Origin: a phage
Length of the DNA stretch: 64,000 nt
Sequence record: NC_100327.1
Direction: 5' to 3' (one strand)
Shown: positions 1,191 through 64,000 of the stretch, one piece after another
Layout of the letters: every line of letters starts with the position of its first letter
Position numbering within the stretch: the first letter of the stretch is position 1
Notes under the pieces: generated by a model
What the model saw: only the letters and a program-made list of their open reading frames with translations
The model's database searches: none
Told to the model about the DNA's origin: nothing
Translations under genes and position numbers: made by a program

Positions 1191-2075
1191 TTATTTCCCG
1201 TTAACTTTGTTGTAGTTTCCCTGCTCAGATGGGACTATGGTAGAAGGTCTTCCATATTCCTGATAATACCAATCCGCAGCCGATTGGGTAACACCGTTTT
1301 CATCTGTCCACATCATAGACTTGTATGGCTGCCACTCCTCTGCAGCGTTTGTGGATGCAGTGTCTGCGAATGCTCCTGTGTCCCTCTTGTTACCTACGTT
1401 ACTACCATTCTTACAGTCGTTGACAGCACCTTTTTGCTGGGTTTTGCCTACTTTCTTAGGATTGCTGTATACAGTTGCATTAACAACCTTATTCAAGTAG
1501 AATGTGCGGAACTCTGTAAGCTCTACATCAAACACCATTGCAGCGCCTTCACCAACAGACTTGTTGGCAGAAAGACTGGTTATGATGTAGTTCTCAAGAA
1601 GTCTCTCCTCGGTAACCAAAGAAACCAACTGTCGCTTATTGATAATCTCAGTCAAAGCCTCCAATGCAGCGCCTGGTCGCATAGATGCTGCAGGGTTTTT
1701 AGAGTCAGTATTCCTGTCAATGTAGTTTTGCTCATAAATTATGTGTGGGGATGTATTTACCCTACCAGTAAAAGAAAATACACCATCTTTAATTACAGCG
1801 TGGTCTGACAGGGTAGATTTATCTTCCACCGCAAACCCAGTCTTATCAACAGAATGTTTGAAAGAGTAATTCTCAACCTGATCGAAGATAATGGCAAGAT
1901 CGTTAGTAAAGTTTTTACCCTTCATCTCCGTATTGCGACCGCCATAGTTAAGACCGCTGACAAACATAGTGTACTTTACATCGCTTTCAGTTTGCTGCTC
2001 TGCCTTTTCAGCCTTTGGAGATTTAACCTCTTGAGGCTTGTACAGGTCTTTTTCATCAACTATATTGCTTGGCAT
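1191..2075 (-). CDS. tail-associated protein (post-tape-measure position)
   Basis: ORF track 1191..2102; start moved to internal ATG (codon 10) preceded by GGAGAGG. Confidence 0.5.
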   Translation of the reverse strand: MPSNIVDEKDLYKPQEVKSPKAEKAEQQTESDVKYTMFVSGLNYGGRNTEMKGKNFTNDLAIIFDQVENYSFKHSVDKTGFAVEDKSTLSDHAVIKDGVFSFTGRVNTSPHIIYEQNYIDRNTDSKNPAASMRPGAALEALTEIINKRQLVSLVTEERLLENYIITSLSANKSVGEGAAMVFDVELTEFRTFYLNKVVNATVYSNPKKVGKTQQKGAVNDCKNGSNVGNKRDTGAFADTASTNAAEEWQPYKSMMWTDENGVTQSAADWYYQEYGRPSTIVPSEQGNYNKVNGK

Positions 2076-2179: not shown

Positions 2180-4516
2180 TTACCAAAGGTCGGTAGACAT
2201 GAAGTTGATATCTTTATTGTTCTCCCACTCAAGTTTTGCATCAAATATTTTGTTAAACTCACCCTCATCTATTGAAATCGTGATTTTCCCATCACTGATC
2301 TCTAAAGGTAGCATTTCCATAGTTCTTAATTGAGAAGCAAAACCAGGGCCACCCGGCAACGGAAGAGTCCCGCCCGGTAAGGTGTCCAAAGGATTAACAA
2401 ACCCGTTACCTCCCGATATGATATCTTTGCGAATCATATCGCTGATAGTATCCAGCTGCTGATTTCTTTCACTTAGTGGGTTGTAACGGTCATTAAATAA
2501 TTCCCCGGCGCTTAGTATTGTACCGATAATGCCCAGCTTACCGAGCAGACCAACTTTGCCACCAGGTGTCTTGAGGCCACCTCCACCTTTTCCTGCCGGA
2601 GCTCCACCACCAGATCCTTCTGTAGTAGCGGCACCCGCTGCTCCAGCTGCACCTCTTAGAGAGTTAAGGAATTTAAAGGTTTTTACAAGCATGGATGCCA
2701 TGACAAAACCTTTTGTTAGGGCGTTGACTACCAGCATGATGGCAGCAGCAAACCCTGCCCATTTAGCATAGCTAAAGGTGTCATGAAGCTCTTCAGAATA
2801 TTCCTTCGTCTTAGCTGTTATGAATCCCCATTTAATCCCCCATTCAAGGAAAAACATGCGGATCTTGACTATAGTGTTGTTTAGTTCACCAACTACCCAG
2901 TTAAGGCCTCTCACAAACCCGCTAACAAAATCACCAGAGGCATCCCACACAAATTGCAGAGTCTCACCCGTGCGGATCAGTGTATAATAGAACTCTGTTA
3001 GTTCGTCAGACCAACGGGTGAACAGTTTCTGACGAGTCAGTTCGATGAAGGTTTTCAGTCTGTTTTCTGCCAGCACGTTAGACTTCTGCATTCTTTCATA
3101 ACCAGCTGCAGATGCCTCGTTCATGTACTTAGCCACATACTTCATGATCTTGGCTGTTTTAACCTCACCTTTCTTCATCATGTCCATGAACTGATCCATG
3201 GAGAGTTCAGAAAGACCAAAAGCCTCTTTGGTGGCCTTGATAAAAGGTTCGTATGCACCAGGCAATGCTTCAGCAAGTTGTTGCTTCAGTTCTTCGGACA
3301 TTACTTGTCCTTTCCCAAGCATCTGTTGGATTGCCATAATACCGCGCTGGTATTTTACCTCATCGGCACCATAAGCAGCAGCATACTGTGAGTATGCAGA
3401 AAACAGCTCATGCACTTCCTGATTTGTCATCTGGTTTTTGGCGTTTACCGACATCTGGGCGTAACCTTGAAGACCAGATTTGAGATCAAAACCAAGACGC
3501 ATAGCCTCTTGCTGGACAAACGCAACCTCACTGTTGGCTTTGTTTGGATCTCCAGTAACAGCAGTAAGAGCAGCACTTGCCCCCTCCATCATGTGACCGG
3601 ATCTGTTAACCGCAGCAAATCCAGAAAAAGCTGTATACGCAGCTGTTGCATTAATAACAGATCTACGTAAGTCTCTCATGGCATCGCCTAGTGTAAGCGT
3701 TTGGCTGGTGGCGCTTTTAAACCCAGACTGCAGCGCTGACAGGTGGGCGTTAAAGGTTGACTTCTTCATCTCCCCGCGAGCAAACCTGGACTCTAACTCT
3801 GAGTATCCTGGCAAGCTTCCACGGAATCCGGCCCCATACTTGGCAGAAAGTCTTATCGCGGAGTTGTAGAGGTGGGTTCTCCTTGCCTCACGATCCGACA
3901 TAAGCCTATTATCCATACCAGCTTTACTGTCTCTTCTTAGCTGTCTATGATAACGATTCATAGCGGCTGTCTGAGCTTTCACAAGGTTAGGGTCGGAAGC
4001 TACACCACCCATATTAGGGTTACCGGGGATATATTTGAAAGCTTTGGCATTAGCCAGAACTCTTGCCTTAGGTGCCTTATAACCGCCGTAAGACACTGGT
4101 GCAGATTTGGCAGCCTTTTTGGCCTCTTTAGCTTGCTGCTGGTAGAACTTACGCATCCTAGCCATTTCTGGATTTTTAGCGGTAAGATTACCTACAGCTT
4201 GTTTACGTCTCGCATTCTCCCTACGTTCTATTGCAGCCCTTACTGCAGCCTCTTTCTTGGCCTGTGCTACGCTCTCTCTGTGCAGTTTAGCATTTGCCTG
4301 AGATTGCTGTCTGGCAACCCTCTGCATTGTCTGCTGGGTTTTAACAGCTACCGCCTGCCATCTACTCATGGGGTTGGCTGAGTTAAAATCCTCGCCCAGT
4401 TTCCTGAACTCCCTCCCAATACTGCGAATTTTCTCTACAGCTTTTTTGTAGGAGGAGTTCTCTATCTCAAAGCCAATCTTGTTGACTGTTGTGGCAACTA
4501 TTTTGTTTGTAGCCAT
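2180..4516 (-). CDS. tail tape measure protein
   Basis: 778 aa, ATG with GAGGA RBS; long alpha-helical Ala/Gln/Lys-rich N-terminus, Gly-rich segment, hydrophobic stretches; follows chaperone pair. Confidence 0.8.
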   Translation of the reverse strand: MATNKIVATTVNKIGFEIENSSYKKAVEKIRSIGREFRKLGEDFNSANPMSRWQAVAVKTQQTMQRVARQQSQANAKLHRESVAQAKKEAAVRAAIERRENARRKQAVGNLTAKNPEMARMRKFYQQQAKEAKKAAKSAPVSYGGYKAPKARVLANAKAFKYIPGNPNMGGVASDPNLVKAQTAAMNRYHRQLRRDSKAGMDNRLMSDREARRTHLYNSAIRLSAKYGAGFRGSLPGYSELESRFARGEMKKSTFNAHLSALQSGFKSATSQTLTLGDAMRDLRRSVINATAAYTAFSGFAAVNRSGHMMEGASAALTAVTGDPNKANSEVAFVQQEAMRLGFDLKSGLQGYAQMSVNAKNQMTNQEVHELFSAYSQYAAAYGADEVKYQRGIMAIQQMLGKGQVMSEELKQQLAEALPGAYEPFIKATKEAFGLSELSMDQFMDMMKKGEVKTAKIMKYVAKYMNEASAAGYERMQKSNVLAENRLKTFIELTRQKLFTRWSDELTEFYYTLIRTGETLQFVWDASGDFVSGFVRGLNWVVGELNNTIVKIRMFFLEWGIKWGFITAKTKEYSEELHDTFSYAKWAGFAAAIMLVVNALTKGFVMASMLVKTFKFLNSLRGAAGAAGAATTEGSGGGAPAGKGGGGLKTPGGKVGLLGKLGIIGTILSAGELFNDRYNPLSERNQQLDTISDMIRKDIISGGNGFVNPLDTLPGGTLPLPGGPGFASQLRTMEMLPLEISDGKITISIDEGEFNKIFDAKLEWENNKDINFMSTDLW

Positions 4517-8385: not shown

Positions 8386-8850
8386 TTATTTTTGCTGTCC
8401 AATTTTAAAGGTTGCAGATTCCAGCAGCACATCGTAATGCCGCATAGCCTCGTTGAAGCCCTTCTCTTGTGCCCACTGCTCACTAACAGTAGGGTTACTA
8501 AACTGACCAGCCTCAATAACAAACTGGATAGCTTTGGCCCCTGTGTCCCCCATCTGCTTAAGAATAGCCTCTGCACTTGATCCTCTAGCCATAGCTCTCA
8601 ACAATTTTTCTGTCAAGGTCTGTAGTTGAGTGCTGTGAAATGCAAAAGCTGTCTCCATGAAATTGCGAACAGGCAGCCCGTTCCAACCGAAGTTGTGAAT
8701 GGCTGCCAATGTTGCCATATTTAAGCCTGACGGGTGAGGTTCGTCATAAAAGCCGTAGGTTATTGTTTTACTTTCAAGTCTCACAAGTTCTTTGTAGAAG
8801 CGATCTAAACGCTTTAGGTTGAACCTTGTTTGACATTTAACCTTTAGCAT
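8386..8850 (-). CDS. neck/head-tail joining protein (position-based)
   Basis: ORF track 8386..8862; start moved to ATG at codon 5 with GAGGG RBS. Confidence 0.4.
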   Translation of the reverse strand: MLKVKCQTRFNLKRLDRFYKELVRLESKTITYGFYDEPHPSGLNMATLAAIHNFGWNGLPVRNFMETAFAFHSTQLQTLTEKLLRAMARGSSAEAILKQMGDTGAKAIQFVIEAGQFSNPTVSEQWAQEKGFNEAMRHYDVLLESATFKIGQQK

Positions 8851-9583: not shown

Positions 9584-10429
9584 TTATGCCAGTGCAGCCT
9601 CAAAATCTTTCATCATATTTTGGAAAGTTTTTGCCTTACTTAAGATAACACCGTGCTCTTTGGCGAAGGTTTGGAGTGCATCTTTTGAACCACTTTTGTC
9701 ATCTTCGTTGTTAAGAGCTGCGGCCTGCTGCAGTATGGCATCAACATCACTGCGAGAAGATCTTGATTCTTGTGCCTGTTCAGGATCCTGCTCAGTGCCT
9801 CCCGGTGCAGCCGGATCTGGGGATTCTCCACCCCCACCACCTGGTTCAGTAGGACCTACAGGTGGCTCCGGCTCTGGTTCAGGCAGTGGAGCTACCGTAG
9901 AAACCAGCCCAAGATTTACAACCTGAGAACGTTTCTTAGGCCACTCGATGGTGAAAGTTTGGGTATCTTCTTCATAAACAATGTTGCATTGCTCATCGTT
10001 TATGGTCACTTTTTTAGGCATACCTTCAGGGTCCCACAGATGGCCCTCTGCCACGGAAACTTTGAAAGCAGCATCTACCTCTTTAAACACTGACGGAGTG
10101 AGTGTAATATTGACATCCCCGCTTTGCAGTGTTAAAGTGCTTTCATCAAGGTTCTCTGTGAAGAACAGAAGAATAACACCCATACGGATAGTTGAAATAC
10201 CAGTATCAATTGGCAGGCCTGTGTGTTTTGCAATCTTCTCGAAGAAGTCTACAATCGTTCTACATGGATAGTGAACACTGCCGATAACGAATTCTGTTGG
10301 TGGCAGCAGGGCTGATAAACCAACATTGATTTCTGGATTATATTGTGCTAAAAATTGATAAAAACTTAACTGATTGTTGAAAACTCTTAATAGAGGATCA
10401 TACTCAACTGGGTAGACGGTTCGCTTCAC
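9584..10429 (-). CDS. structural protein with Pro/Glu-rich linker
   Basis: 281 aa; GTG start with AGGAG RBS; PEPEPEPP/GGGGG low-complexity linker; follows major capsid gene. Confidence 0.4.
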   Translation of the reverse strand: MKRTVYPVEYDPLLRVFNNQLSFYQFLAQYNPEINVGLSALLPPTEFVIGSVHYPCRTIVDFFEKIAKHTGLPIDTGISTIRMGVILLFFTENLDESTLTLQSGDVNITLTPSVFKEVDAAFKVSVAEGHLWDPEGMPKKVTINDEQCNIVYEEDTQTFTIEWPKKRSQVVNLGLVSTVAPLPEPEPEPPVGPTEPGGGGGESPDPAAPGGTEQDPEQAQESRSSRSDVDAILQQAAALNNEDDKSGSKDALQTFAKEHGVILSKAKTFQNMMKDFEAALA

Positions 10430-19860: not shown

Positions 19861-19959
19861 AGGTGCTAGGTGATGGAATCGAACCACCTATGTATTCAAC
19901 GACTACCTCGTCTATTTTCAGGATTAAAAATCCTCGCCCTTGCCAAAGGGCTTACCTAG
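19861..19959 (-). tRNA. aberrant tRNA-like element with Lys (TTT) anticodon loop and ~25-nt insertion
   Basis: About 99 nt: perfect acceptor GCTAGGT/ACCTAGC, D-arm GCCC-TTTGGCAA-GGGC, anticodon loop TTTTTAA, T-arm GGTGG-TTCGATT-CCATC; extra hairpin GACGA-ggtag-TCGTT between anticodon and T arms; 3' end ACC not CCA. Confidence 0.4.
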
Positions 19960-20057
19960 CTCAGTATGTTGACCATGTTGCTAGTCGGCGATGACGACTG
20001 TAACATTTGATAATCCGGTTCTGCTTCCGACTTTCGCTTAATTACAAGGTCAACAAT

Positions 20058-20354: not shown

Positions 20355-20429
20355 TGGCACCCCGTACTGGACTCGAACCAGTGTCAACGGCTTAGAAGGC
20401 CGCTGCTTTATCCACTAAGCTAACAGGGC
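20355..20429 (-). tRNA. tRNA-Arg (anticodon TCT)
   Basis: Acceptor with two G-U pairs, D-loop AGTGGATA, anticodon loop CTTCTAA, T-arm ACTGG-TTCGAGT-CCAGT, CCA encoded. Confidence 0.75.
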
Positions 20430-20525
20430 ACTGGGTGGCTTTCTTTTACACCTTAGCCGCCAGAAAAGGTGGGAGACCATGTTTACAATATTACACTGTT
20501 AAGCAAAGTTTGTCAAGAAAATATT

Positions 20526-20864
20526 TTAGCTATTGCTAACAGGTTGTATTTCTGTGGTAAATGGCATAAAAGGTGCTGGTTTTTCAGCCTCTTCTACTAC
20601 CACCTCTTCCTCTTCACCAAACATCTCATCATATTCTTCCTGCATTCGGTCTGCCTTATCAAGAACATACTCTGCAATGCTTTGACGAATATTTTGTTTG
20701 GTTTTCGGGTCCAACATCAGCTCTCTTAGAACTTTGTGAGCTTCTGGAACCATCGCTATAAAAGATTCCTTCATATCGAGGATGTTCTTCTCTAGCTGAA
20801 TGGCGTTGGACTCCTCTTTCAGAGGTCTGCCTCTACGGCGACGCTTTTTAGTTGTATCCGCCAT
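20526..20864 (-). CDS. AT-hook-like DNA-binding protein with acidic tail
   Basis: ORF track 20526..21017; start moved to ATG (MADTTKKRRRRGRPLK) with GGAGG RBS; RGRP basic motif; Glu-rich C-terminus. Confidence 0.5.
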   Translation of the reverse strand: MADTTKKRRRRGRPLKEESNAIQLEKNILDMKESFIAMVPEAHKVLRELMLDPKTKQNIRQSIAEYVLDKADRMQEEYDEMFGEEEEVVVEEAEKPAPFMPFTTEIQPVSNS

Positions 20865-21212
20865 GTTTCCTCCATTATCACGTGATAGGTGGATTTTATC
20901 ATAGCAAATACTGATTGTCAAGTTCGCCGCAGGGTGGTATTCCCTGCGACTTGTCCAGCGTCCTGGACCAGCAAGACCCAACAAGTGGGTTTTCCAGCTA
21001 TACCCATTACCGCGCACAGGCTCGACCTTATTACAGGTTGGCTGGGGTCACATCGTCATGTGCTGGCTGCCCCTACCATTTTAAGTGTGGTGCACTATCA
21101 AGCCCTCTAAGGGGAACTCAGTCTTCTCCGAACCCTGTTTCAAAGCATCCAGAGATAAAGCCATCAAATTCATCTTTAAATTGGATATTCATCATGATAC
21201 ACGAAAACAACC

Positions 21213-21455
21213 TCATTGTAAAGCACAAATAAATAAAACATACTTAATTTGTTTGTTATCAGGCTCAGGGTAGAAGTAGAAGATCTTGCTATCACCGATC
21301 TGAACACCACCATCCCAACAACATAGCCCATAACCTGTATTCATACAAGCTAAGTCGTTGGCAAAATCTATTGCATCATCCAGTGCACGAAATTCACCTT
21401 CATCTTCTAAATAATCCTCATTCATGGAACGAAAAACGAGCTTAACCTTAAACAT
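21213..21455 (-). CDS. hypothetical protein
   Basis: 80 aa ORF, ATG start. Confidence 0.4.
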   Translation of the reverse strand: MFKVKLVFRSMNEDYLEDEGEFRALDDAIDFANDLACMNTGYGLCCWDGGVQIGDSKIFYFYPEPDNKQIKYVLFICALQ

Positions 21456-21531
21456 AGCATTACCTGTAGACCTCGTAAGTTAAAATTGCATCACATCATA
21501 TTGCAGATCTTATCAGGTAACACTATTTTTG

Positions 21532-21741
21532 TCAACAGATTCCGGCCTTATCCTTCCTGTCTGCGTATTCTTTAATCGCAACCTCATCTGCATTAGTGAC
21601 CAGGTCTTCAAAGTAACTCTCAAGCTCCTCGTCAATGTCAGGAGACCAGCTCTTTTTCCTGTCAGTGTGAATTGCAGACTTGTTGAACTTATTACAGTTC
21701 TTTGCTACCGGGTTGTTCATTAAGCGCTCCTCAGCGTTCAT
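21532..21741 (-). CDS. hypothetical protein
   Basis: 69 aa ORF, ATG overlapping upstream gene end. Confidence 0.4.
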   Translation of the reverse strand: MNAEERLMNNPVAKNCNKFNKSAIHTDRKKSWSPDIDEELESYFEDLVTNADEVAIKEYADRKDKAGIC

Positions 21742-22309
21742 AGTAAATTTTATTTAACATTACCTCATCTTTTGCAGAAAGAATACCGAGATATGCATCA
21801 CCGAATCTACCTGCAACAACCTCTGCATGATACATCACTTCGTTAATATCGTCAAGAGTGATAACTGGATGACCGTATCTCTCTGAGTATTGTCTCAGAG
21901 TGCGATGTAGAGAGTCATCATCATAGGCAGACTTTTTAATATCACAAACACGACGAATAGCCTTGATGTCGAAAAAACCTGTGCGATACCACCCAAGAAA
22001 AAGGTTTCGTGCAGTGTCAACATCTACATTGATACCATCAAGAACCTTATCTACAAGATAGCTGTCATCCTTTGGACCAGCGTCCTTAGTGCGAATGTAG
22101 TTGCCATCTTTTCCAGGCGACATCTCCTTCTCATCCCCAACCTGCATGCCATCATTTGGCGGTGTTAGCCACTTATCCGGATGCTTACGATCACGAGCGT
22201 TAGAATGATTACGCTGGAAACCGGGCTTCCACTTGAAAGTTTTCTCCATCTGTTCTTCATTCTGATAACGTTTTGCAATCTTTTCACGGTCATCTTTGCG
22301 TGAACCCAT
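21731..22309 (-). CDS. hypothetical protein
   Basis: 192 aa, ATG with GAGGAGG RBS. Confidence 0.55.
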   Translation of the reverse strand: MGSRKDDREKIAKRYQNEEQMEKTFKWKPGFQRNHSNARDRKHPDKWLTPPNDGMQVGDEKEMSPGKDGNYIRTKDAGPKDDSYLVDKVLDGINVDVDTARNLFLGWYRTGFFDIKAIRRVCDIKKSAYDDDSLHRTLRQYSERYGHPVITLDDINEVMYHAEVVAGRFGDAYLGILSAKDEVMLNKIYYER

Positions 22310-22689
22310 AGCTGCCTCCTCTTCAAGTTATAGAAAAACTCACTGTATCGCTTTGTAACGAGCTTTTCTATCAAACTGGTGCGATTGCATTACCTGGTAT
22401 AGTTTATATAGCTGTGGAGCGATTTAGGGGCCTTCTTGTCAGTTTCCACACATAAACTTCATCCAAGCTCGCGCGGGAGACTCTCAACCGACTCCTTACG
22501 GCGCTGGCAAGCTTTCGTCGGTGGTCCACATCAGTGCTCGGCCTTTGGCCTGCGCTATCGCTTCGCTCCCACACATGTTAACAGACCTGCATGTATGAAC
22601 TTCTGTTATTGTGTGCACCAAGGAGGCCCGGCATCTCGCCCCTCGTAGGCGAGTGCCAATGAAGGGCCGACACTGCCCATAGTAAGTAA

Positions 22690-22810
22690 TAAATTTAAAA
22701 CATGGTACTTAGGATCTAGTATATTCTACATAAGTTAAGTATATGTACTTAGTACCATAAGTACTAGATCTTTTATTTTTTATTATTTAGTTATTTTAGT
22801 TATATTCTTT
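22690..22810. promoter_or_regulatory. AT-rich palindrome-bearing region (candidate origin/regulatory DNA)
   Basis: Over 75% A+T with GTACTTAG/CTAAGTAC-type inverted repeats and T-runs, adjacent to iteron array. Confidence 0.4.
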
Positions 22811-22812
22811 AT

Positions 22813-22900
22813 GTGTCCGTATCACGGACAGTTAGTGTCCGTATTACGGGCAGATGTGTCCGCGTGACGGACAGTAGTGTCCGTATCACGGACAGTTAAT
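22813..22900. repeat. array of 4-5 palindromic operator/iteron-like sites at ~22-bp spacing
   Basis: TGTCCGT-atc-ACGGACA twice exactly, plus variants TGTCCGT-att-ACGGGCA and TGTCCG-cgtga-CGGACA and a degenerate fifth copy. Confidence 0.7.
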
Positions 22901-22969
22901 AGTATCCGTTCCATGACGAACATAAAACATACGAATCCTTATAGTACAGATATTTAAGTTTTTACTGGT

Positions 22970-23320
22970 CTAACCAGTTGTTGACATCCGAATAACTTCT
23001 TCTGGTGGCAAAACTTTGGAAAATGTGCATCTTTTACCTCTCCCTTGTGTGGATGTTTCAACCACTCCTGCACATTCTAAAGTTTTAACGCACGCTGCTG
23101 CTTTTGTTTTCTTTATCCCAACATCTGCTGCAATTTTCCTTGTGCTTGGTGTGAAGCGTGAATTTCCTCCAAGCTTATACCAGTTGTGCAGGTAGCAGTA
23201 TACGATCTTGTCATACAAGTCAAGAACAACAACCTCCCCAGTTGTGTCATTCAAAACTTTTGACATAGATAGTATTTCAAGGGGGACTTTAAGATATAGC
23301 AGCTTATCCCCATCTTTCAT
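22970..23320 (-). CDS. winged-helix/HTH DNA-binding protein (candidate binder of adjacent iterons)
   Basis: 116 aa, ATG with AGGAG RBS; helix-turn-helix-like segment STRKIAADVGIKKTKAAACVKTLECAGVV. Confidence 0.45.
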   Translation of the reverse strand: MKDGDKLLYLKVPLEILSMSKVLNDTTGEVVVLDLYDKIVYCYLHNWYKLGGNSRFTPSTRKIAADVGIKKTKAAACVKTLECAGVVETSTQGRGKRCTFSKVLPPEEVIRMSTTG

Positions 23321-23367
23321 ATCTCCTGATTCTCCTTGTGTGGCAATTTTCTTTAAAATAGCAGGGA

Positions 23368-23922
23368 TTACTCCCTGCTGTCAATATCAAAACTCATTGC
23401 AATACGGTATGCCTCTTCTAATGGTAAGAGTCTCCCCCACACATCCCAACCGACATCAAGCTGCCTGCCAAACAACTGTTGTGTGGTTCCGTGAGCATGA
23501 CCGAACAGTTGGACTGATCCGTGAGGCTTTCTGTTCCACTTTGCAAACTGGTAATGGCTCATACAGATCAAATTCTTGTTGTGGCGAAGCTCGTAATAAT
23601 CTACAACCTCATGACCGAACTCTTTCATAATTCTGACAGTCGTCCTTGTGTCATGGTTGCCACGAACAAGAATAATATGTCCGTTCAACATATTTAGAAT
23701 ATCTGGAAGTAAGTTGTTGATATTCTTATCATTAGTGCACGCAATATCTCCCAAGTGGAACACAGTGTCTGCAGGTGACACAACAGAGTTCCACTCGGCG
23801 ATGATTCCCGCATTCATACTGTCAAGATTGTGATCATACTGAGATCTGTGTTTTTGACATGAATCAAACTCCATGACCCGCTGGTGGAGAAAGTGTGTGT
23901 CGCTTGTTACAAAGTATTTCAT
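23368..23922 (-). CDS. calcineurin-like metallophosphoesterase
   Basis: ORF track 23368..24027; start moved to ATG (MKYFVTSDTHF) with GAGGAA RBS; motifs SDTH, HLGDI, GNHD. Confidence 0.7.
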   Translation of the reverse strand: MKYFVTSDTHFLHQRVMEFDSCQKHRSQYDHNLDSMNAGIIAEWNSVVSPADTVFHLGDIACTNDKNINNLLPDILNMLNGHIILVRGNHDTRTTVRIMKEFGHEVVDYYELRHNKNLICMSHYQFAKWNRKPHGSVQLFGHAHGTTQQLFGRQLDVGWDVWGRLLPLEEAYRIAMSFDIDSRE

Positions 23923-62225: not shown

Positions 62226-62346
62226 AGCACCGAGCCCACACAGGTTCCTCATGCTAAAGCATGGCCTGAAGAGGAAAACGTGCATAATTCCTGTGCATTG
62301 GGACGTATAAAACCCTGTTCACACTCTCATTTCCAGAGGAGATTTT

Positions 62347-62562
62347 ATGAAGATAGAAATATTTGGTGGAGCTGACAACACTCGTGGCCTGATTTACCTT
62401 GAATTCGATGAATCATACCTGCCAGAGGTGTTAAATATAGACTCTGTTGCTGATGCTTTGGGAGTAAACCCTAAAGAACTCCACTCTTGTGCTGAGATCG
62501 ATGGTTGGGAGGAGACCATGAACATTGATTTCAGTGAAGTAGAGGATGAACCGCTGGACTGA
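62347..62562 (+). CDS. small acidic protein
   Basis: 71 aa, ATG with AGAGGAG RBS; MKIEIFGG start resembles family A N-termini. Confidence 0.45.
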   Translation: MKIEIFGGADNTRGLIYLEFDESYLPEVLNIDSVADALGVNPKELHSCAEIDGWEETMNIDFSEVEDEPLD

Positions 62563-62912
62563 CGCACAATTAGCTGCCCGGCCAAAGTGCTGGAAGCACC
62601 TATAACACATCTTTCAACTAAATTTCCCACCACCACAATCACTTACCTTCCACACATGACTGTTTGCTTGTTTAGTGAGCAGTCATGCCTTGACATTCTT
62701 GCCTATCCTGATAAAATTAAGTTCTTCTCTTTTCTTTTACCGAGTAATTCGGGTTTTCTGTTCTCTTCGGTTTGAAGGGGTATGGAGATACACCTGAGTG
62801 AACAGGGTGAACAACCGAACCATTGGCTATGGCATTAGCATGGCGAAGCGGACGGGTGACGAAAGAGGGGCCGGAGGACACCAGTCACTGCCATATGATA
62901 TATGGGTGATAA

Positions 62913-63473
62913 CCTGAAGAGTCTGAATAAGTGTTTAAGTACCAGTCAGAGGAAAAGGTGAATGGTAGCCGAAGGGGGGAGGGGGGTTTCTTGTATCTTT
63001 AATTTGTATATTATGTATACACTTGTAAACCAATCTCATCTGAATCTGTTTACCACACAAAGCGAATAGAGACAAATATTACCTATTAAACTTGAATTAT
63101 TTATAGAAAATACCACAACACCACTTAAGTCTTTGATTTTACACACAAATCCTACAGATATTCATCCTCCCTATTTAACATACCTGTAACATATTCCATA
63201 CTCTACCTGCCTGATCAATTTACCCAACCACATCCTCCATATTTTCCCTGTCTGTACTACCCCTGCCCCGCCGGGAGTCCCGTCATATCTGGCTTTCCAG
63301 CAAATATCGCACCCACAAATATCATTGCCTGAAGAGGGTTTCATCCCATAATACATGCCTTACCTGAAGAGCGCTTCATACACCACGTAAATTTTTTAAT
63401 TGACCTGCAATTTTCCCGTCATGACCCCATGCCCCGCCGGAGAGGTTGGCTTTTCCCACACAGACCTGAAGAG
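62913..63473. repeat. dispersed short direct repeats in non-coding DNA
   Basis: CCTGAAGAG at 62913, 63338, 63363, 63465; TGCCCCGCCGG near 63262 and 63430; TTGACCTG near 63400, 63505 and 63847; no credible ORF over ~1.4 kb. Confidence 0.55.
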
Positions 63474-64000
63474 TCAGCCAGAAATATCTGAACAGGCCCA
63501 ATTCTACCACGATTTTGACCTGACCTACAGGAGTGCTGCCAGGCGGACGAAATGGGAATACTTCTCATTCTTATAACAATTCTCAAATATCAAGGCAGTG
63601 AGGCAAATTAATAGGCTAGGCCGTTCACACAGTGGCACAACATTTGCAACCTATCTTGTGGGAGTGAATGAGAATACCTATCATTGTGAGAATAGTTATC
63701 ATTACGGGCAATTTAACATAATACCCATTATGCGCACCACTGGCGATACATACAGGGATTGATAACATGGGTTACTGTTTACGCACATAACAATTATATT
63801 TCTTATTATTTGTGGGGGATATAGTTAGCAGCCAATAGATTAGATATTGACCTGCAGACTTCTGACCGTCCAGACGTCTAAACGCCCACACAACAAGGAT
63901 TATACATACAACACTGAATGTAAACAGGACCGCAAAAATGCTACCATACAAGCTTGTAAATTTTTCATGCAGCACTTGACAAAGAGGAGAAAAACTTGTC

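What the first reader, a model, noticed from the sequence alone, without database searches (positions are those of the whole stretch)
22380..22680. Second GC-richer structured non-coding segment upstream of the 21731..22309 gene
About 300 nt without a convincing gene (track ORF 22436..22648 has no RBS and Arg/Ser/Pro-rich composition typical of GC-rich noise). It contains a clean hairpin CTCGCC-cctcgta-GGCGAG and abuts the AT-rich palindrome region. Possible structured leader, small RNA or intron remnant.
Basis: seen in the sequence. Interest (0 to 1): 0.4.

Follow-up and report, generated by a model that had tools for sequence, protein, structure and literature searches.

The report
Hairpin modules beside phage replication origin
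The GC-rich stretch is a conserved non-coding set of hairpin modules next to the likely replication origin of an rV5-like E. coli phage. Two of the modules recur, with compensating base-pair changes, in small plasmid-like elements that look like satellites of this phage.

Summary
The window is a Vequintavirus (rV5-like) genome.

The segment flanks an origin-like unit: an AT-rich palindromic region (22680-22812), four 21-22-nt iterons (22813-22898), and a 116-aa gene of a PHROG family named 'replication initiation protein'.

Third codon positions next door are 79% invariant and the linkers 44-68%.

Both islands recur in about 13-kb E. coli plasmids that carry capsid, tape-measure and baseplate homologues of this phage, with their own initiator and iterons. 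Between phage and plasmids, five base pairs changed on both sides and the loops stayed the same.

There is no Rfam match. The + strand ORF carries stop codons in all five other phages.

Best reading: a cis-acting folded + strand element of the origin. My leading mechanism is a structured transcript running toward the AT-rich region. Single-stranded DNA priming signals are the close rival. Neither transcription nor origin activity has been shown.

The parts
22380..22467 (+). Left arm. Contains the near-palindrome TGCGATTGCA, a possible extended -10 (TGgTATAGT, 22395-22403), the ATTTAGGGGCC motif and a TTCCACACA motif. Fast-evolving: 68% invariant columns.
   Evidence: Homologous to the start of the satellite arrays. 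Conservation. The promoter reading is my inference from the sequence; the promoter scan found none.
22468..22532 (+). Module M1. Inner helix ACCGAC/GTCGGT (22487-22492 with 22517-22522), outer helix GACT/GGTC (22479-22482 with 22523-22526), and a 24-nt conserved loop TCCTTACGGCGCTGGCAAGCTTTC.
   Evidence: 93.8% invariant among six phages. Present in 6 of 38 satellite variants with stem GCTGCC/GGCAGC and the same loop. Three of six inner pairs changed on both sides and 98.1% of cells are paired. RNAalifold finds the same helix and adds the outer one, which has an invariant U-G and the series A-U, G-U, G-C at one pair.
22533..22575 (+). Module M2. Hairpin GGCC-TTT-GGCC (22540-22550), ending in the junction motif CCCACACA (22568-22575).
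   Evidence: 86% invariant. Resembles the satellite M2' module (GCTATCGC...CGCTCCCCACA). CCCACA closes every satellite module.
22570..22615 (+). Variable long hairpin: CACACA/TGTGTG (22570-22575 with 22610-22615) plus TAACAGA/TCTGTTA (22579-22585 with 22602-22608).
   Evidence: Predicted on both strands. 49% invariant. An 18-nt deletion (22592-22609) in rV5 and Murica removes the inner 3' arm but keeps the outer arms.
22621..22674 (+).
   Evidence: 94.4% invariant. z about -2.9. Present in satellites L006 and L108 with GGCA/TGCC changed to GTCA/TGAC and CTCGCC/GGCGAG changed to CTCTCC/GGAGAG, giving the same fold.
22680..22812 (.). AT-rich, partly palindromic region (GC 0.23-0.35) with GATC sites and short T-rich tandem repeats. 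Candidate DNA-unwinding element.
   Evidence: 94.3% invariant.
22813..22898 (.). Four tandem 21-22-nt iterons GTGTCCGTATCACGGACAGTA, each an internal inverted repeat.
   Evidence: 91.9% invariant. Annotated as repeat_region in phage nom.
22970..23320 (-). 116-aa winged-helix gene, the candidate origin-binding initiator.
   Evidence: PHROG 12838 'replication initiation protein', E = 5e-80. Pfam HTH_36 at 24.5 bits, just under the cut-off of 25. Annotated 'replication initiation protein' in the RefSeq records of rV5, FV3 and Murica.
22436..22648 (+). Track ORF of 70 aa. Not a gene.
   Evidence: In-frame stop codons in rV5, Murica, Aya, FV3 and YP-6.
22404..22574 (-). ORF of 56 aa with a GTG start (rV5 'ORF 78'). 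Probably not a gene.
   Evidence: Open in all six phages, but variable sites number 9, 12 and 7 at codon positions 1, 2 and 3. The homologous satellite sequence is broken by insertions.

Best explanation
The segment is the structured flank of an iteron-type replication origin of the phage. Reading left to right on the + strand, the order is: hairpin modules (22380-22674), AT-rich unwinding region, four iterons, initiator gene. Two modules, M1 and T, are under strong purifying selection. They work as folded single strands of + polarity: their stems only need to pair, while the M1 loop is read sequence-specifically.

My preferred mechanism is that the block is transcribed rightward, antisense to the neighbouring genes, into a roughly 270-300-nt structured RNA that runs up to the AT-rich region. 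There it would act in cis on origin firing, by transcriptional activation or priming, or by binding a replication factor.

The satellite-like plasmids carry the same modules in the same place and polarity beside their own, different iterons. This suggests the modules recruit a factor that is common to both replicons, supplied either by the phage or by the host.

Shown: the segment is non-coding; conservation is confined to islands; the helices covary; modules are shared with the plasmids; the origin-like architecture is present.

Inferred: origin function, transcription, the active strand, and the mechanism.

The confidence of 0.4 is for the whole statement, including the RNA mechanism. That the segment is a conserved, structured, non-coding element I hold at about 0.9, and that it belongs to a replication origin at about 0.6.
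For: Context.
- All 118 matching phage records are Vequintavirus, at 88-100% identity, with one copy per genome.
- Four iterons at 21-22-nt spacing and an AT-rich block lie alongside.
- The adjacent gene falls in the PHROG family 'replication initiation protein' at E = 5e-80.
- Cumulative GC skew reaches its minimum, and gene direction switches, about 1.5-2 kb to the right.

Selection.
- M1, T, the AT-rich block and the iterons are 92-94% invariant.
- Third codon positions of the neighbouring gene are 79% invariant and the linkers 44-70%.

Structure.
- M1 inner helix: three of six pairs changed on both sides; 98% of cells paired, against 7-81% when the partner is slid.
- T module: two pairs changed on both sides, and the fold is identical in phage and plasmids.
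- The 24-nt M1 loop differs at one position only.

Same layout in a second replicon.
- In 38 plasmid variants the order is hairpin array, AT-rich region, then iterons. Their iterons differ from the phage's.
- Their initiator is not detectably related by BLASTP (E = 0.58), although both proteins hit Pfam HTH_36.

Polarity and RNA.
- 36 of 38 plasmid arrays end in a hairpin plus T-run that reads as a terminator on the + strand only, followed by a second such structure. A candidate + strand promoter diverges from the - strand promoter upstream.
- The M1 outer helix has an invariant U-G pair and the series A-U, G-U, G-C, which pair only on the + strand.
- Several plasmid stems have G-T pairs on the + strand only (sequences).
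Against: - No sigma-70-type promoter or intrinsic terminator was found in the phage intergenic region on either strand. My extended -10 candidate (22395-22403) is lost in phage Aya.
- No expression data exist for this region.
- Whole-segment folding is not better than shuffles, and M1 alone is thermodynamically weak.
- All compensatory changes in M1 and T separate just two lineages, phage and plasmids, so they count few independent events.
- Phage Aya has A-C on the + strand at the end of the M1 helix, which would be G-U on the - strand.
- The - strand folds more stably for 36 of 42 plasmid modules, although its G-rich composition may explain that.
- The related three-hairpin cassettes show no wobble pairs at all and mostly G-N-A three-base loops, which points to DNA-level hairpins.
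- In the plasmids the terminators lie between the array and the origin core, so the RNA may not reach the origin.
- Origin function itself rests on architecture and on annotation-level homology only.
Confidence: 0.4

Rival explanations
1. Single-stranded DNA initiation signals. Once the AT-rich region is opened, the adjacent + strand DNA folds into hairpins that a primase or helicase loader recognises. The precedents are ssiA/ssiB beside the iterons of RSF1010 and the three-hairpin G4-type signals. No RNA product is needed.
For: - The position is directly beside the AT-rich region and iterons in both replicons.
- Stems covary and the loop is conserved.
- The related three-hairpin cassettes have 10 of 15 pairs changed on both sides, no one-sided (wobble) changes in 120 cells, and mostly G-N-A three-base loops. 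From my own knowledge, such loops are characteristic of very stable DNA mini-hairpins.
- The loop of the plasmid hairpin occurs in both orientations, and one cassette lies inverted on the other strand just downstream. Both are DNA-level features.
- RSF1010 precedent: PMC8567376.
Against: - The M1 stem is short and weak as DNA (-6 kcal/mol, z = +1.2).
- The M1 outer helix relies on a T-G pair.
- The plasmids keep + strand terminator-like hairpins after the array, which have no role in a purely DNA mechanism.
- No sequence similarity to any known initiation signal could be tested.
Confidence: 0.25
2. A - strand mRNA element: a structured intergenic spacer or 5' leader of the 192-aa gene 21731..22309 that controls processing, stability or translation.
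For: - All flanking genes are on the - strand, and read-through from the initiator gene promoter (23384..23355) is possible.
- Phage Aya's change gives G-U on the - strand.
- The - strand folds slightly better.
Against: - In the plasmids the modules precede an unrelated 49-aa ORF and lie upstream of that ORF's own strong promoter, so they are not in its leader.
- The invariant U-G and the G-U intermediate in M1 would be C-A mismatches on the - strand.
- M1 ends about 160 nt and T about 310 nt from the start codon, with poorly conserved sequence in between.
Confidence: 0.12
3. A cis signal for something other than replication that helper and satellite must share, such as a DNA packaging (pac) recognition site.
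For: - The plasmids encode no recognisable terminase but do carry capsid and tail genes, so they would need the helper's packaging machinery.
- M1 and T are the only non-coding stretches in this window that are 84-87% identical to the plasmids.
Against: - Only 6 of 38 plasmid variants carry M1 and only 2 of 38 carry T.
- Covarying stems point to a folded single strand rather than a duplex site.
- The phage has a second, larger non-coding locus from 62563 onward, where some deposited genomes end. That is a better candidate for packaging.
Confidence: 0.08
4. Selfish or neutral palindromic cassettes, in the manner of REP, BIME or MITE elements, that accumulate in permissive intergenic DNA and were exchanged between phage and plasmids, with no function for the phage.
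For: - Plasmid arrays differ in the number and order of modules, and each module is bounded by CCCACA.
- A 50-nt three-hairpin cassette is an insertion polymorphism flanked by a 10-nt direct repeat at a second phage locus.
- The middle hairpin of the segment is partly deleted in rV5 and Murica.
Against: - M1 and T are single-copy per phage genome.
- They are as conserved as second codon positions, while their linkers drift.
- The M1 loop is held constant while its stem is rewritten.
Confidence: 0.1
5. A small protein is encoded: the 56-aa - strand ORF 22404..22574 or the 70-aa + strand ORF.
For: - The - strand ORF is open in all six phages and is annotated in rV5 and the BASEL genomes.
- The Murica 3-nt deletion lies within this ORF and is in frame; the 18-nt rV5/Murica deletion lies outside it and is in frame only for the + ORF.
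Against: - The + strand ORF has stops in five of six phages.
- The - strand ORF has a GTG start, and most of its changes are at codon positions 1 and 2.
- Homologous plasmid sequence is interrupted by 44-nt and 32-nt insertions, while the paired positions co-vary.
Confidence: 0.03

Closest known systems
oriV of plasmid RSF1010 (iterons, GC-rich and AT-rich segments, ssiA/ssiB hairpins read by the RepB' primase)
   Same: Iterons, an AT-rich segment and conserved hairpins lie side by side. The hairpins would be recognised as folded single strands by an element-specific factor (PMC8567376, seen; the rest is my own knowledge).
   Different: There is no sequence similarity. Here the conserved modules are in one orientation in the phage, not an inverted pair. 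No primase link has been shown. Terminators after the plasmid arrays hint at transcription.
Origins that depend on a transcript: ColE1 RNA II, T4 ori(uvsY)/ori(34) R-loop origins, and transcriptional activation of lambda ori (my own knowledge)
   Same: A structured or origin-directed transcript would run into an unwinding region beside the initiator's binding sites.
   Different: No promoter has been shown here. No RNase H site or persistent hybrid is known. The plasmids terminate before the iterons.
Phage lambda ori (four iterons, an AT-rich region and a flanking GC-rich palindrome; my own knowledge)
   Same: Four iterons, then an AT-rich region, then a GC-rich palindromic flank, with the initiator gene adjacent.
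   Different: Lambda ori lies inside the O gene, and its palindrome is a single 28-bp element. Here the flank is about 300 nt of several modules and is shared with satellite-like plasmids.
REP/BIME and other small palindromic repeat elements
   Same: Short GC-rich hairpin cassettes in intergenic DNA, variable in number, with insertion polymorphism.
   Different: M1 and T are single-copy and strongly conserved. The cassettes are bounded by CCCACA. No associated transposase was seen.
Rfam structured RNAs of phages (for example GOLLD, ROOL, C4/CI antisense RNAs)
   Same: A conserved structured non-coding element in a phage, a few kilobases from a tRNA cluster.
   Different: No Rfam family matches at any threshold, in either the phage or the plasmids.

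Membership tests
Any Rfam 15 RNA family | Covariance-model score at or above the family's gathering threshold | tested here: not met
   Only tRNAs were found in the window. The best relaxed hit over the segment is rli43 at 21.9 bits against a threshold of 100. Nothing was found in the plasmids.
Protein-coding gene | An ORF kept open in relatives, with substitutions biased to third codon positions | tested here: not met
   The + strand ORF has stops in five of six phages. The - strand ORF is open, but its changes number 9, 12 and 7 at codon positions 1, 2 and 3.
Intrinsic terminator | A GC-rich hairpin followed directly by a T-run | tested here: not met
   No terminator-like sites in window 20400-23400. 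The T hairpin is followed by AATGAAGGGCC. The plasmid arrays, by contrast, do end in such a site on the + strand.
Iteron-type replication origin | At least three direct repeats of about 17-22 bp in helical phase | tested here: met
   Four copies with a period of 21-22 nt at 22813-22898.
Iteron-type replication origin | An AT-rich unwinding region next to the iterons | tested here: met
   GC 0.23-0.35 over 22680-22812.
Iteron-type replication origin | An adjacent gene for a winged-helix initiator | tested here: inconclusive
   PHROG 12838 'replication initiation protein' at E = 5e-80, but that name is an annotation. Pfam HTH_36 scores 24.5 bits against a cut-off of 25. Binding to the iterons is untested.
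Iteron-type replication origin | Demonstrated initiation of DNA synthesis at the site | not testable with these tools
   Only indirect support: the GC-skew minimum and the switch in gene direction lie 1.5-2 kb away.
Single-strand initiation signals (RSF1010 ssiA/B, G4-type) | A conserved hairpin within or beside the origin that acts as a folded single strand | tested here: met
   Covarying stems with a conserved loop, next to the AT-rich region and iterons.
Single-strand initiation signals (RSF1010 ssiA/B, G4-type) | Primase-dependent primer synthesis at a defined start on the hairpin strand | not testable with these tools
   This needs a biochemical or M13-conversion assay.
Primer or activator RNA of an origin (ColE1 RNA II type) | A promoter upstream and a transcript directed into the origin | tested here: inconclusive
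   No consensus promoter in the phage segment, only a candidate TGgTATAGT. The plasmids have a weak + strand promoter candidate and + strand terminators.
REP/MITE-like repeat elements | Many copies per genome | tested here: not met
   M1 and T occur once per phage record and have no other copy in the window. The three-hairpin cassette does show insertion polymorphism.

The most novel reading that the evidence does not exclude
M1 and T are recognition hairpins through which a previously undescribed family of about 13-kb E. coli satellite-plasmids taps the replication machinery of virulent rV5-like phages. That would be a cis-acting origin module shared between a lytic myovirus and its parasites. 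It would sit within arrays built from mobile DNA-hairpin cassettes that insert at CCCACA-type junctions.
Probability: 0.3. Interest if true: 0.8.

Novelty: new variant of a known kind. Interest (0 to 1): 0.6.

Why it matters
Replication origins of large virulent coliphages outside T4, T7 and lambda are essentially unmapped. This locus gives a concrete, testable origin for the Vequintavirus group, which is widely used in phage therapy collections. It also offers a defined pair of conserved hairpins to mutate.

The same hairpins link the phage to small E. coli plasmids that carry capsid, tape-measure and baseplate genes. I found no description of these plasmids in the searchable literature. If they are satellites, the shared modules would be the first cis element pointing to how a plasmid-borne satellite couples to a strictly lytic helper.

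Tried and rejected
- Rfam at gathering and relaxed thresholds, on the phage and the plasmids: nothing.
- An exact 18-mer scan of one genome per species returned 59 hits in unrelated bacteria, consistent with chance for a GC-rich 18-mer.
- The same 18-mer in IMG/VR found one Vequintavirus contig only.
- Searches of IMG/VR with the plasmid initiator and capsid proteins found nothing.
- More distant phage relatives were sought through the two flanking proteins. Both are confined to the genus, so phage-only covariation is thin.
- Comparison with the other GC-rich non-coding block (20867-21117) showed no shared sequence.
- No sequence complementary to the M1 loop was found in the window or in plasmid L006 that could serve as an antisense target.
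- A pseudoknot between GAGACT and the loop of the alternative M1' module is not conserved across variants (sequences).
- A helix TGTGGA/TCCACA (22415-22420 with 22446-22451) is broken in phages Aya and YP-6.
- Reading CCCACA/TCCACA as DnaA boxes: the TTAT half is not conserved, so I dropped it.
- Using folding-energy asymmetry to choose the strand is confounded by the G-rich composition of the - strand.
- Literature searches for rV5 origin mapping, transcriptomes or satellites found nothing relevant.

Full report
**What the window is.** The 651 bases around the finding are 100% identical to Escherichia phages nom and WalterGehring. They are 88-100% identical to 118 records, all Vequintavirus (rV5-like) genomes, with one copy per record. 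The segment lies in a 660-bp intergenic region between two - strand genes. One is a 192-aa hypothetical gene (21731..22309). The other is a 116-aa winged-helix gene (22970..23320). Both flanking proteins and the intergenic DNA are confined to this genus in the phage collection.

**Checking the observation.** GC content is 0.55-0.58 across 22450-22650, against about 0.43 overall and 0.23-0.35 in the AT-rich block to the right.
- The hairpin CTCGCC-cctcgta-GGCGAG is at 22635-22653. It is part of a larger stacked structure spanning 22625-22668.
- That structure is significantly more stable than shuffled sequence (z about -2.9).
- The whole 291 nt is not (z -1.4 and -1.5).
- The + strand ORF 22436..22648 has in-frame stops in all five other phages compared.
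- The - strand ORF 22404..22574, annotated in some records, stays open, but its changes fall mainly on codon positions 1 and 2.
- No Rfam family matches.
- No sigma-70-type promoter or intrinsic terminator is found anywhere in the intergenic region.

**Surroundings.** To the right of the segment lie three features:
- an AT-rich, partly palindromic stretch (22680-22812);
- four tandem 21-22-nt repeats, GTGTCCGTATCACGGACAGTA, each an inverted repeat (22813-22898);
- the 116-aa gene. It belongs to PHROG 12838, 'replication initiation protein' (E = 5e-80). It hits Pfam HTH_36 just under the cut-off. RefSeq annotates it as a replication initiation protein in rV5, FV3 and Murica.

The cumulative GC-skew minimum and the switch from - strand to + strand genes lie 1.5-2 kb further right. 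This is the layout of an iteron-type origin. Origin activity itself is inferred, not shown.

**The key lead.** A search of complete E. coli genomes found partial matches (84-87% identity in two blocks) only on small plasmids of about 13 kb, in unannotated DNA.
- These plasmids encode a major capsid protein, a tape measure and a baseplate protein.
- Three of their proteins are 25-50% identical to proteins encoded at window 1389-2012, 2786-4504 and 8422-8844.
- They also carry their own initiator of about 300 aa with a weak HTH_36 hit, and their own iterons.
- They therefore look like plasmid-borne satellites of Vequintavirus. I collected 38 distinct variants.

**Anatomy from the comparison.** In every plasmid the order, in the orientation of the window's + strand, is as follows:
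1. a 49-aa ORF on the - strand with its promoter;
2. an array of hairpin modules, each ending in CCCACA(CA);
3. in 36 of 38, a hairpin GCCTAAAGAG...CTCTTTAGGC followed by a T-run, terminator-like on the + strand only;
4. a C-run/G-run hairpin;
5. an AT-rich stretch;
6. iterons that differ from plasmid to plasmid.

The phage segment aligns to this array.
- The left arm (22380-22467) matches the start of the arrays.
- M1 (22468-22532) occurs in 6 of 38 plasmids. The rest carry an alternative module, M1', with the same flanks.
- M2 (22533-22575) resembles the plasmid M2' module.
- A variable long hairpin (22570-22615) has no plasmid counterpart noted.
- T (22621-22674) occurs in 2 of 38 plasmids, at the position where the others have the terminator-like hairpin.

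**Evidence for structure.**
- The M1 inner helix is ACCGAC/GTCGGT in phages and GCTGCC/GGCAGC in plasmids. Three of six pairs changed on both sides, and 98% of cells are paired, against 7-81% when the partner is slid. The 24-nt loop differs at one base.
- RNAalifold recovers this helix independently. It adds an outer helix with an invariant U-G and the series A-U (window), G-U (rV5, Murica), G-C (YP-6) at one pair. FV3 breaks that pair.
- In T, GGCA/TGCC becomes GTCA/TGAC and CTCGCC/GGCGAG becomes CTCTCC/GGAGAG. Minimum-energy folds are identical on either strand.
- Caveat: these five double changes separate only two lineages.

**Selection.** Across six divergent phages, invariant columns are as follows:

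| Region | Invariant |
|---|---|
| M1 | 94% |
| T | 94% |
| AT-rich block | 94% |
| Iterons | 92% |
| Neighbouring gene, codon position 2 | 95% |
| Neighbouring gene, codon position 3 | 79% |
| Left arm | 68% |
| Middle hairpin | 49% |
| Spacer after T | 44% |

rV5 and Murica lack 18 nt of the middle hairpin but keep its outer arms.

**Which strand, and RNA or DNA?**

For the + strand:
- the U-G and G-U pairs in M1;
- several plasmid stems with G-T pairs on + only (sequences);
- the + strand terminator-like structures after the plasmid arrays, and a weak + strand promoter candidate diverging from the - strand promoter.

For the - strand:
- phage Aya's change, which is G-U only on -;
- lower folding energy for 36 of 42 plasmid modules, which the G-rich composition of that strand may explain.

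For DNA-level hairpins:
- a related three-hairpin cassette (CCC-GAA-GGG, then a 7-bp stem, then a 5-bp stem) has 10 of 15 pairs changed on both sides, not one wobble pair in 120 cells, and mostly G-N-A three-base loops;
- the loop of the plasmid terminator-like hairpin occurs in both orientations;
- one cassette sits inverted on the other strand, and another is a 50-nt insertion flanked by a 10-nt direct repeat at a second locus of phages nomine and bov10K2.

My conclusion is that the active form is a folded + strand. I put RNA slightly ahead of single-stranded DNA, mainly because of the terminators and the wobble pairs. This is a judgement, not a result.

**How it most likely works.** The modules form the structured flank of the origin. 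In my preferred model, a rightward transcript of about 270-300 nt, antisense to the neighbouring genes, folds into M1 and T and runs up to the AT-rich region. There it would affect origin firing in cis, or bind a replication factor through the conserved M1 loop.

The plasmids keep the same modules, in the same position and polarity, beside different iterons. Their initiator is not detectably related by BLASTP (E = 0.58). This argues that the modules engage something common to both replicons: phage-encoded or host replication proteins.

The close rival is a purely DNA mechanism like ssiA/ssiB of RSF1010 (PMC8567376). A - strand leader for the 192-aa gene is unlikely, because the plasmid modules precede an unrelated ORF and lie beyond its promoter. 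A packaging signal is unlikely, because most plasmids lack M1 and T. A selfish-repeat explanation does not fit two single-copy islands conserved at the level of second codon positions.

**Comparison with known systems and novelty.** The element works like the accessory structured region of an iteron origin, as in RSF1010 oriV, the lambda ori palindrome, and ColE1 or T4 origin transcripts. It is not a sequence member of any described family.

I found no paper on Vequintavirus origins, transcripts or satellites. The nearest concept for the plasmids is the Vibrio 'phage-inducible satellite-plasmids' (PMC13230959).

I rate the element a new variant of a known kind, with moderate to high interest. 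Most of that interest comes from the helper-satellite sharing of a covarying origin module.

Noticed in passing
L006 (NZ_CP020521.1, whole record); L067-L074; L080-L110: A family of about 13-kb circular E. coli plasmids (38 distinct non-coding variants collected; one record is a 39.6-kb trimer). They encode a major capsid protein, a tape measure and a baseplate protein. Three of their proteins are 25-50% identical to proteins of this phage. They also have their own HTH_36 initiator, their own iterons and a 2.2-2.9-kb non-coding region. They are candidate satellite-plasmids of rV5-like phages. No description was found in the searchable literature.
   Followed up: partly
L111 (phage nomine) and L112 (phage bov10K2); empty site in window at about 63520-63530: A 50-nt three-hairpin cassette (GAGGCCCGAAGGGTCTAGCTGAAAGCTAGAGTCCTTGCAGGACCTACAGG) is inserted in some Vequintavirus genomes, flanked by the direct repeat GACCTACAGG, and is absent here. 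The same cassette family builds the plasmid arrays. It shows 10 of 15 pairs with double changes and no wobble pairs, so it looks like a small mobile DNA hairpin element.
   Followed up: partly
window 62563-64000 (continues past the window end): A second large non-coding region, about 2.5 kb without annotated genes in phage nom, lying where the + strand gene block ends. It contains GGGGGGAGGGGGG, four copies of CCTGAAGAG, other repeats, and a hairpin AAGTGCTGGAAGCACC identical to hairpin 3 of a plasmid cassette. Four deposited genomes end inside this locus. It may hold a packaging start or a second origin.
   Followed up: partly
window 9734-9768 versus L006 2594-2628: A 35-nt stretch inside the phage - strand ORF 9584..10429 is 88.6% identical to plasmid DNA that lies immediately downstream of a TTGACA-17-TATAAT promoter. 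The plasmid transcript would be antisense to the phage gene's mRNA, making it a candidate satellite antisense RNA against a helper gene.
   Followed up: no
plasmid arrays, for example L106 versus L068: The loop of the conserved hairpin GCCTAAAGAG-loop-CTCTTTAGGC occurs as TCGCTAATG in most plasmids and as its reverse complement CATTAGCGA in L106. L110 has a shortened version of the second form. This is a flip/flop of the loop between unchanged arms.
   Followed up: no
window, whole: CCCACACA occurs 9 times against 2.05 expected; no shuffle out of 100 reached 9. Eight of the nine copies are on the + strand, several of them in the non-coding regions at 22568 and at 62235-63892.
   Followed up: no
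window 20867-21117: The other GC-richer non-coding block (GC 0.50-0.56), upstream of a strong - strand promoter-like site (20921..20893), shares no sequence with the segment studied here or with the plasmids.
   Followed up: partly
window 19862-19960 (- strand): Within a cluster of seven tRNA genes, ARAGORN calls one 99-nt tRNA of undetermined identity with a four-base anticodon (atcc). Rfam scores it at 35.5 bits.
   Followed up: no
GenBank MG0656xx records (hits): Eighteen records labelled 'Campylobacter phage' with host Campylobacter jejuni are near-identical Vequintavirus genomes. The labels are probably mis-assigned or reflect contamination.
   Followed up: no
window 22330-22371: A 12-nt inverted repeat, ATAGAAAAACTC / GAGCTTTTCTAT, lies in the 93%-invariant stretch just upstream of the 192-aa gene's ribosome-binding site. 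It could be an operator or a 5' UTR hairpin.
   Followed up: no
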